64,000 nucleotides of DNA, from assembly GCF_030013595.1 (NCBI RefSeq), contig NZ_CP122768.1. One strand, 5' to 3'. Below the pieces are notes generated by a model. It saw nothing but the letters and a program-made list of their open reading frames with translations. It was not told the DNA's origin and did no database searches. Below are positions 21,528-21,725 of the stretch, in pieces. A program made the position numbers and the translations under genes. This DNA comes from Escherichia coli. GTDB taxonomy: Bacteria > Pseudomonadota > Gammaproteobacteria > Enterobacterales > Enterobacteriaceae. Within the stretch, counting starts at the first letter, position 1, and the number at the start of each line of letters is the position of its first letter.

Positions 21528-21700
21528 AGGGCGCGCATATTAACTTTGTAACGTCATAGAGTCAAAGAAAAAGGCAGCATGTGGTTGCCTTTTGCCAATA
21601 ATTCGCACACATTGCGGGTTACTGCTTTATTTTCGTTCAGTGCTGATAACGAACATCAACCTGCAAAACGAAGCGCATAGTTTAAAATGGCTATCATCAA
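21528..21700 (-). ncRNA. sraB: Candidate SraB small RNA in the yceD-yceF divergent intergenic region
   Basis: Assigned from K-12 knowledge that SraB lies between yceF and yceD in yceD orientation; I did not identify its promoter or terminator in the sequence, so the extent is a guess. Confidence 0.25.
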
Positions 21701-21725
21701 TACGCTATATCTGATGGAAAAAAAT

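What the first reader, a model, noticed from the sequence alone, without database searches (positions are those of the whole stretch)
21528..21725. Candidate small RNA (SraB) in the yceD-yceF divergent intergenic region
A 198-bp divergent intergenic region lies upstream of the yceD-rpmF-plsX-fab operon. From established K-12 knowledge an sRNA (SraB) maps here in yceD orientation. I cannot verify its ends from sequence alone.
Basis: established knowledge. Interest (0 to 1): 0.25.

Follow-up and report, generated by a model that had tools for sequence, protein, structure and literature searches.

The report
Known small RNA gene sraB
The gap between yceF and yceD in this E. coli window holds sraB, a long-known small RNA that binds the protein ProQ, so the finding is correct but ordinary.

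Summary
The observation and the interpretation both hold. The window is E. coli, in reverse orientation to K-12. yceD starts at 21527 (-) and yceF at 21726 (+), leaving exactly 198 bp between them. The Rfam SraB model (RF00077) matches end to end at 21732..21564 on the minus strand: 203.3 bits against a gathering score of 130, E = 2.3e-42. K-12 annotates sraB (b4418) with the same geometry, and the window differs from it by 2 SNPs.

The RNA actually made is probably shorter, about 109 nt (about 21672..21564):
- Published dRNA-seq puts the start site 60 nt downstream of the annotated one.
- That start lies 7 nt after a TAAACT -10 box found in 80 of 81 Enterobacteriaceae loci.
- The short form folds into three clean hairpins (z = -2.25).

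Comparison across genera shows a modular locus. A 3' hairpin-plus-terminator core is shared by all genera. The 56-nt middle hairpin occurs only in Escherichia, Salmonella, Citrobacter and Intestinirhabdus, and shows compensatory base changes. The terminator abuts an invariant promoter for yceD, whose mRNA has no leader.

SraB binds ProQ, but I found no validated target. This is already known, and interest is low.

The parts
21564..21732 (-). sraB as annotated in K-12 and modelled in Rfam (169 nt)
   Evidence: RF00077 hit, 203.3 bits, E = 2.3e-42, model 1-169. Same geometry as K-12 b4418. Two SNPs against K-12.
21564..21672 (-). Probable major SraB transcript (short form, about 105-109 nt): hairpin 2, hairpin 3 and terminator
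   Evidence: Published dRNA-seq puts the start site 60 bp downstream of the annotated 5' end (PMC7967276). The start lies 7 nt after the conserved -10 box. The MFE is three clean hairpins at -30.5 kcal/mol, z = -2.25, against z = -0.9 for the 169-nt form.
21679..21684 (-). -10-like hexamer TAAACT of the sraB promoter, within the invariant CATTTTAAACT
   Evidence: Present in 80 of 81 Enterobacteriaceae loci at a fixed distance from the yceD ATG. The generic sigma-70 scan does not call it, because the -35 is weak.
21693..21715 (-). Rfam hairpin 1. It lies upstream of the dRNA-seq start site, so is probably promoter DNA rather than RNA
   Evidence: Paired in 21/24 cells in the Escherichia/Salmonella-type loci, but only 10-52% per pair in the other genera.
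21632..21672 (-). Hairpin 2, a clade-specific structured insertion
   Evidence: Absent from 71 of 81 loci. Present at identical overall length in Escherichia, Salmonella, Citrobacter and Intestinirhabdus. In the apical helix, 5 of 9 pairs change on both sides and 92.6% of cells are paired.
21598..21622 (-). Hairpin 3, containing the near-invariant CCGCAATGTGTGCGAAT (21601..21617)
   Evidence: The inner helix is 97.7% paired but almost invariant, so gives no covariation information. The outer helix is only 58% paired across genera.
21564..21593 (-). Intrinsic terminator: AAAAGGCA/UGCCUUUU stem, then a UCUUU tail; A-rich 5' flank
   Evidence: Rfam structure. The fold is -8.2 kcal/mol here and -10.8 in K-12. 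The helix is 90% paired in 54 distinct sequences, with 4 of 11 pairs changed on both sides. The generic terminator scan missed it, probably because of its loop-size limit.
21525..21565 (-). Neighbouring yceD promoter and start codon: TTGACT-17-TAATAT, then GCGCGCCCT, then ATG
   Evidence: Promoter scan hit. Nearly invariant in 76 loci. yceD is described as lacking a 5' leader (PMC4378010). The -35 overlaps the last two nt of annotated SraB.
21726..21728 (+). yceF start codon, overlapped in antisense by the annotated SraB 5' end

Best explanation
The interval holds sraB (also called pke20 or PsrD), a known enterobacterial small-RNA gene. It is transcribed on the minus strand, away from yceF and towards yceD. 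Its promoter has an invariant -10 box (TAAACT, 21684..21679) and overlaps the divergent yceF promoter region. Transcription most probably starts near 21672, not at the annotated 21732. It stops at an intrinsic terminator (21593..21564) 36 nt before the yceD ATG. The product is an RNA of about 109 nt with three hairpins. The terminator has an A-rich 5' flank and a 3' U tail, matching published determinants for recognition by the ProQ FinO domain, and SraB is an experimentally used ProQ ligand. By inference, SraB works as a ProQ-associated regulatory RNA acting in trans on targets not yet identified. Its level is tied to growth state. Its terminator also keeps sraB transcription out of the leaderless, stringent-looking yceD-rpmF promoter that begins at its last two nucleotides. 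Shown here: identity, position, strand, structure, terminator, conservation pattern. Taken from the literature: transcript, start site, ProQ binding, ppGpp repression. Inferred: trans-acting regulation and the insulator role.
For: - Full-length RF00077 hit at 203.3 bits against a gathering score of 130.
- K-12 annotation of sraB with identical geometry, and 259/261 identity.
- The short-form region is present in 5424 of 5426 complete E. coli genomes at 95% identity or more.
- The MFE of the 109-nt form reproduces Rfam hairpins 2 and 3 and the terminator, z = -2.25.
- The Rfam structure is 91.8% paired in six long-type sequences, against 36-44% when slid. Hairpin 2 has 5 compensatory pairs.
- The terminator helix is 90% paired across 54 distinct sequences, with 4 pairs changed on both sides.
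- TAAACT is present in 80 of 81 loci, and lies 7 nt upstream of the published start site (PMC7967276).
- ProQ binding of SraB is shown by HDX, SAXS and EMSA (PMC5393179).
- ProQ's N-terminal domain needs a terminator hairpin and at least 4 U, and ProQ ligands have A-rich 5' flanks (PMC7367173).
- SraB is ppGpp-repressed in Salmonella (PMC3963941).
Against: - No RNA data exist for this strain.
- I found no validated target in the papers I could search, and two key ProQ interactome papers were not held.
- Hairpin 3 is conserved in its loop as well as its stem and shows no covariation. That fits a DNA-level constraint (upstream region of the yceD promoter) as well as an RNA one.
- The whole 169-nt sequence does not fold better than shuffles (z about -0.9).
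- The original mapping, the K-12 annotation and the Rfam model all use the longer 5' end.
Confidence: 0.85

Rival explanations
1. The 169-nt RNA starting at 21732 is the functional species. It acts in cis as an antisense RNA against the yceF ribosome-binding site and start codon, which its first roughly 20 nt complement perfectly.
For: The K-12 annotation and the Rfam model start there, overlapping yceF by 7 nt. Hairpin 1 is paired in 21/24 cells in the Escherichia/Salmonella-type loci, with one compensatory change. The original discovery reported the long form (cited in PMC7967276).
Against: Three dRNA-seq data sets place the start site 60 nt downstream (PMC7967276). Conservation of positions 1-55 is explained by the yceF start codon and RBS and by promoter boxes. 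Hairpin 1 is not kept in the other genera. The 169-nt fold is no better than shuffles. The promoter scan finds no sigma-70 site upstream of 21732.
Confidence: 0.12
2. The RNA has no function of its own. The locus is conserved as DNA: a divergent promoter pair plus a terminator that shields the yceD-rpmF promoter. The hairpin-3 region would then serve as the upstream activating region of that promoter (UP-like T tract, possibly a Fis-type site centred about 72 bp upstream of the yceD ATG).
For: The sequence from the terminator T tract to the yceD ATG is nearly invariant in 76 loci, and hairpin 3 is conserved in stem and loop alike. Even a divergent locus (L041) keeps a GC-rich hairpin plus T tract directly before TTGACT. 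I found no known target. GTGCGAATTATTGGC loosely fits the Fis pattern G-N13-C with an A/T-rich centre (my reading of the sequence, not tested).
Against: Hairpin 2 shows compensatory changes and an exactly conserved length (151 nt from the -10 box to the ATG) in four genera, which indicates selection on RNA structure. SraB is strongly enriched with ProQ and binds it specifically (PMC5393179). The sraB -10 box itself is invariant.
Confidence: 0.2
3. SraB is the prematurely terminated 5' leader of a longer yceD-rpmF-plsX transcript, that is, a transcription attenuator for a ribosomal-protein operon.
For: The terminator lies 36 nt before the yceD ATG on the same strand. SraB is ppGpp-repressed like ribosomal operons (PMC3963941). 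Two yceD promoters are listed in the literature (PMC13060810).
Against: An invariant strong promoter sits between the terminator and the ATG, and yceD is described as leaderless. A read-through transcript would put the yceD AUG behind GCGCGCCCU, with no Shine-Dalgarno sequence. I did not search systematically for an alternative antiterminator pairing and noticed none. No ligand or sensor element is known.
Confidence: 0.06
4. The transcript encodes a small protein. Candidates: a 13-aa ORF from position 37, a 9-aa MFVISTERK in hairpin 2, and a 16-aa MCANYWQKATTCCLFL running through hairpin 3 and the terminator.
For: These short ORFs exist in the sequence. The first codons of the third lie in the invariant 17-mer.
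Against: The first ORF starts upstream of the dRNA-seq start site. The second lies in a segment absent from most genera and not conserved in sequence. The third changes frame and length between genera through 1-nt indels, has non-synonymous variation at codon 5 (TAT/AAT/AAA), and lacks a Shine-Dalgarno sequence in E. coli.
Confidence: 0.02

Closest known systems
SraB RNA (Rfam RF00077; E. coli K-12 sraB b4418; synonyms pke20, PsrD)
   Same: Same locus (yceF-yceD intergenic region), same strand relative to yceD, and the same 169-nt extent by the model. 167 of 169 nt are identical to K-12, with the same hairpins and terminator.
   Different: Two SNPs. U-to-C in the hairpin-2 loop (21651). G-to-U at 21579, which opens the innermost pair of the terminator (-8.2 against -10.8 kcal/mol). 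This allele, or one within 1 nt of it, is the majority form in complete E. coli genomes (3702 of 5424 at 99% or more).
ProQ-dependent small RNAs of enterobacteria (for example RaiZ)
   Same: Highly structured, ends in an intrinsic terminator with an A-rich 5' flank, and is bound by ProQ rather than depending on Hfq (PMC5393179, PMC7367173).
   Different: According to a paper title in a cited reference list (Smirnov et al. 2017, EMBO J), a ProQ-dependent small RNA represses an mRNA in trans. That this RNA is RaiZ, and that its target is defined, is my own knowledge. For SraB, no target or seed has been established in the papers I could search.
Short-type yceF-yceD intergenic elements of other Enterobacteriaceae (Enterobacter, Klebsiella/Raoultella, Kosakonia, Leclercia, Kluyvera and others)
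   Same: Same -10 box, same hairpin-3 17-mer, same terminator position, and the same yceD promoter.
   Different: They lack the 56-nt hairpin 2, so the predicted RNA would be only about 50 nt. They score 34-98 bits, below the RF00077 gathering score.

Membership tests
SraB (Rfam RF00077) | Covariance-model score at or above the curated gathering score (130 bits), full length | tested here: met
   203.3 bits, E = 2.3e-42, model 1-169 of 169, no truncation.
SraB (Rfam RF00077) | Genomic context: between yceF and yceD, on the yceD strand, ending just upstream of yceD | tested here: met
   21732..21564 (-); yceF ATG at 21726 (+); yceD ATG at 21527 (-). Identical to the K-12 geometry.
SraB (Rfam RF00077) | Consensus secondary structure (hairpins 1-3 plus terminator) supported in relatives | tested here: met
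   91.8% of cells paired in six long-type sequences, against 36-44% when slid, with 6 pairs changed on both sides. The caveat is that hairpin 1 is not kept outside the clade.
SraB (Rfam RF00077) | Rho-independent terminator at the 3' end | tested here: met
   An 8-bp stem plus a UUUUUCUUU run. The helix is 90% paired across 54 distinct sequences. It was not called by the generic scan, which limits loops to 3-8 nt.
SraB (Rfam RF00077) | A discrete small transcript is made | not testable with these tools
   Known only from the literature on K-12 and Salmonella (PMC7967276, PMC3963941). There are no expression data for this strain.
ProQ-associated sRNAs | Terminator hairpin followed by at least 4 U, with an A-rich motif 5' of the terminator | tested here: met
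   AAAA precedes GGCA...UGCC, followed by UUUUU. The criteria are from PMC7367173.
ProQ-associated sRNAs | Physical binding to ProQ and ProQ-dependent regulation of a target | not testable with these tools
   Binding is shown for K-12 SraB (PMC5393179). I found no target.
5' leader / transcription attenuator of the downstream operon | The terminator lies within the operon's own transcript, with no promoter between it and the first gene | tested here: not met
   An invariant TTGACT-17-TAATAT promoter lies between the terminator and the yceD ATG. yceD is reported to be leaderless (PMC4378010).

The most novel reading that the evidence does not exclude
The deeply conserved unit may not be the 169-nt SraB of the databases. 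It may be a module of about 50 nt, made of the invariant CCGCAAUGUGUGCGAAU hairpin and the terminator. In all sampled Enterobacteriaceae, this module is fused to an invariant leaderless yceD-rpmF promoter with a GC-rich discriminator. The Escherichia-Salmonella-Citrobacter lineage then added a 56-nt structured hairpin. If so, the primary role could be in cis. It could set or insulate transcription of the L32 / YceD / lipid-synthesis operon, or act as its upstream activating DNA. ProQ binding would then be secondary.
Probability: 0.2. Interest if true: 0.4.

Novelty: already known. Interest (0 to 1): 0.15.

Why it matters
As a finding it only re-identifies a catalogued sRNA gene. Its practical value is for annotation. 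PGAP-annotated E. coli genomes, including one with a 501-bp stretch around the interval (window 21400..21900) that is 100% identical to the window, leave this locus unannotated. The database boundaries (169 nt) probably include about 60 nt of promoter. SraB is still an orphan: it is a model ProQ ligand without a known target. The comparative picture obtained here narrows where a seed or a cis function should be sought. That picture is a conserved 3' core, a clade-specific hairpin, and a terminator abutting a leaderless ribosomal-operon promoter.

Tried and rejected
- **Generic scans.** The promoter and terminator scan found neither the sraB promoter nor its terminator. It did find the yceD promoter. 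This reflects the scan's criteria (weak -35, 9-nt loop), not absence.
- **Small ORFs.** The small ORFs inside SraB were rejected as coding, because of frame shifts and non-synonymous variation between genera.
- **Complement of the 17-mer.** A search of the window for the complement of the invariant 17-mer, allowing up to 3 mismatches, found only the locus itself.
- **Duplex scan.** I scanned the SraB linker and hairpin-3 segment against the start regions of 74 long ORFs in the window. The best energy, -29.0 kcal/mol, was matched by 17 of 100 shuffles. So there is no credible local target.
- **Literature.** I looked for validated targets, RIL-seq partners and the original yceD promoter mapping. 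The key papers (Melamed 2020, Smirnov 2016, Tanaka 1989) are not held.
- **Hairpin 3 covariation.** The test was uninformative, because the helix is almost invariant.
- **Repeat or mobile-element origin of hairpin 2.** Nothing supports it. The region occurs once per E. coli genome.

Full report
**What is there**

The window around the finding is E. coli. A 501-bp stretch (21400..21900) is 100% identical to many RefSeq chromosomes and is present in 5424 of 5426 complete genomes. The window runs in reverse orientation to K-12.

- On the minus strand, yceD (21006..21527) is followed by rpmF, plsX and fabH.
- On the plus strand, yceF starts with ATG at 21726.

A scan of the whole window against Rfam gives a full-length match to SraB (RF00077) at 21732..21564 on the minus strand. 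The score is 203.3 bits against a gathering score of 130, with E = 2.3e-42.

K-12 MG1655 annotates ncRNA sraB (b4418) at 1146589..1146757. It overlaps the yceF start by 7 nt and ends 36 nt before the yceD ATG, which is the same geometry as here. Over 261 aligned bases the window differs from K-12 at two positions:
- One is in the loop of hairpin 2.
- The other opens the innermost pair of the terminator, giving -8.2 against -10.8 kcal/mol.

The window's allele, or one within a single mismatch of it, is the majority form: 3702 of 5424 genomes are at least 99% identical over the 109-nt core. The observation and the interpretation are therefore both confirmed.

**Where the RNA really begins**

A re-analysis of three dRNA-seq data sets reports that the SraB start site lies 60 bp downstream of the annotated 5' end. 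The same paper says the Salmonella homologue is about 99 nt, and that a product of about 105 nt was already noted at discovery (PMC7967276).

In window coordinates this start is near 21672. It lies exactly 7 nt downstream of a TAAACT hexamer (21684..21679).

To test this independently, I fetched the yceD loci of 80 species of Enterobacteriaceae, plus one Erwiniaceae, using the YceD protein as an unbiased anchor. I then aligned the upstream regions.
- TTAAACT is found in 80 of 81 sequences, at a fixed distance from the yceD ATG.
- The remaining conserved letters in SraB positions 1-55 are the complement of the yceF start codon, its A-rich leader, and a TATAGCG box. So this part looks like promoter and yceF initiation-region DNA.
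- Rfam's hairpin 1 lies in this part. It is paired in 21/24 cells in the Escherichia/Salmonella-type loci, but only 10-52% per pair elsewhere.
- The 109-nt short form folds into exactly the three downstream Rfam hairpins at -30.5 kcal/mol, z = -2.25, with 7 of 300 shuffles as good. The 169-nt sequence is no better than shuffles, at z about -0.9.

My conclusion is that the main product is the short form. A minor long form is not excluded.

**Modular architecture across genera**

In 71 of 81 loci, the distance from the -10 box to the yceD ATG is 94-96 nt. SraB positions about 3-55 are then directly joined to positions 116-169.

In six loci the distance is exactly 151 nt: the window, E. coli, E. 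albertii, Salmonella enterica arizonae, a Citrobacter and Intestinirhabdus. The extra 56 nt form hairpin 2. The single Erwiniaceae locus is short-type, so the hairpin is most simply a gain in the Escherichia-Salmonella-Citrobacter lineage.

Hairpin 2 is very divergent in sequence but keeps its structure. On six sequences, the Rfam structure is 91.8% paired, against 36-44% when the partners are slid. The apical helix of hairpin 2 has changes on both sides in 5 of 9 pairs. That is evidence for selection on an RNA structure downstream of the proposed start site.

The 3' core is shared by all genera and behaves differently in its two parts:
- **Terminator.** The helix is 90% paired in 54 distinct sequences, with 4 of 11 pairs changed on both sides.
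- **Hairpin 3.** It contains a near-invariant 17-mer, CCGCAATGTGTGCGAAT, conserved in loop and stem alike. It therefore offers no covariation evidence either way.

Rfam's curated threshold is reached only by the long type: 159-200 bits in Escherichia, Salmonella and Citrobacter. Intestinirhabdus scores 105 bits, and short-type loci score 34-98 bits with significant E-values.

**What lies immediately downstream**

The last two nucleotides of annotated SraB are the first two of a TTGACT-17-TAATAT promoter (21565..21537). It is followed by GCGCGCCCT and then the yceD ATG.

This 41-bp block is nearly invariant in all 76 aligned loci. It leaves no room for a leader or a Shine-Dalgarno sequence. A ribosome-profiling study describes yceD as a gene without a 5' non-coding leader that is translated inefficiently (PMC4378010). 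The SraB terminator therefore ends sraB transcription exactly at the edge of the yceD-rpmF promoter.

**How it most likely works**

- **From the literature.** SraB is highly enriched with ProQ and binds it 1:1, contacting the FinO domain, the linker and the C-terminal domain (PMC5393179). The FinO domain recognises intrinsic terminators with at least four 3' uridines, and ProQ ligands carry an A-rich motif on the 5' side that disfavours Hfq (PMC7367173).
- **From the sequence.** The window's terminator has these features, read as AAAA-GGCA...UGCC-UUUUU.
- **Reported expression.** SraB is more than 4-fold ppGpp-repressed in Salmonella in late stationary phase (PMC3963941). It is about 5-fold induced after replication inhibition in E. 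coli (PMC11228462). Its level is lower in a Klebsiella hfq mutant (PMC3136514). It is reported to affect the survival of S. Enteritidis in egg albumen (cited).
- **Targets.** I found no validated target.

I therefore commit to this explanation: sraB makes a ProQ-bound RNA of about 109 nt that ends in an intrinsic terminator. By inference it regulates unidentified targets in trans. The invariant hairpin-3 segment is the most plausible contact site. The terminator additionally insulates the yceD promoter.

**Rivals**

- **A 169-nt cis-antisense RNA against the yceF start.** This is possible as a minor species, but is disfavoured by the start-site data and the conservation pattern.
- **A DNA-level element with a by-product RNA.** This fits the invariance of hairpin 3 and of the promoter block. 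It does not explain the compensatory changes and exact length conservation of hairpin 2, or the ProQ binding.
- **An attenuator leader for yceD-rpmF.** This is contradicted by the promoter sitting between the terminator and the ATG.
- **A small protein.** This is contradicted by frame and length changes between genera.

**Verdict**

This is a correct identification of an already known sRNA gene. Interest is low. The modest added value is threefold. The database boundaries probably include about 60 nt of promoter. The locus is modular, with a clade-specific structured insertion. And PGAP-annotated genomes omit the gene.

Noticed in passing
window 21525..21565 (-): The yceD promoter (TTGACT-17-TAATAT), a GC-rich discriminator (GCGCGCC) and the ATG only 9 nt after the -10 box are nearly invariant in 76 Enterobacteriaceae loci. 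This implies a leaderless or near-leaderless yceD mRNA from a stringent-type promoter. Leaderless status is mentioned in PMC4378010.
   Followed up: partly
L004:1400-1415 (Escherichia sp. MOD1-EC7003): This locus is 98% identical to E. coli from SraB position 116 onward (yceD, rpmF, plsX). Upstream (yceF and the 5' module) it is only 72% identical to E. coli, but 88-93% identical to Pseudocitrobacter. It lacks hairpin 2. The junction sits exactly at the hairpin-2 insertion point, which suggests recombination or retention of the ancestral state.
   Followed up: partly
L053:1300-1440, L057, L061 (Cedecea-like loci): There is an insertion between hairpin 3 and the terminator. In L053 it contains near-matches to both ERIC primer sequences (CACCCCAGTCACTTACTT... 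and ...GTAAGCTCCTGGGGATTC). L057 and L061 carry a shorter version. It would split or lengthen the SraB homologue there. The ERIC identification rests on my knowledge of the consensus.
   Followed up: no
window 21564..21732, compared with RefSeq PGAP genomes: Only K-12 annotates sraB. PGAP-annotated genomes whose sequence is identical across the SraB interval (a 501-bp stretch and the 109-nt core) list no feature under it. This is an annotation gap.
   Followed up: yes
window 23593..23929 (+), 45624..45673 (+), 56243..56285 (+): There are three other Rfam hits above gathering score: the RNase E 5' UTR element (rne5, 260 bits) upstream of rne, the PyrC leader (68.7 bits), and the ES036/CssrF sRNA (45.7 bits).
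   Followed up: no
window 21687..21725 (+): An in-frame ATG lies 39 nt upstream of the annotated yceF start and would give a 207-aa product ([17 protein letters not shown]...). It lies inside the sraB promoter region. The annotated start at 21726 agrees with K-12.
   Followed up: no
window 21598..21612 (-): GTGCGAATTATTGGC loosely fits the Fis pattern G-N13-C with an A/T-rich centre. It is centred about 72 bp upstream of the yceD ATG, the position of Fis site I at rRNA promoters. This is my reading of the sequence only, and was not tested.
   Followed up: no
L066:618-700 (-), L024:2218-2340 (+): There are incidental Rfam hits in related loci: naRNA4 (REP-derived, 60.8 bits, just above gathering) in a Citrobacter locus, and a sub-threshold V_AS5 match in Pseudocitrobacter.
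   Followed up: no
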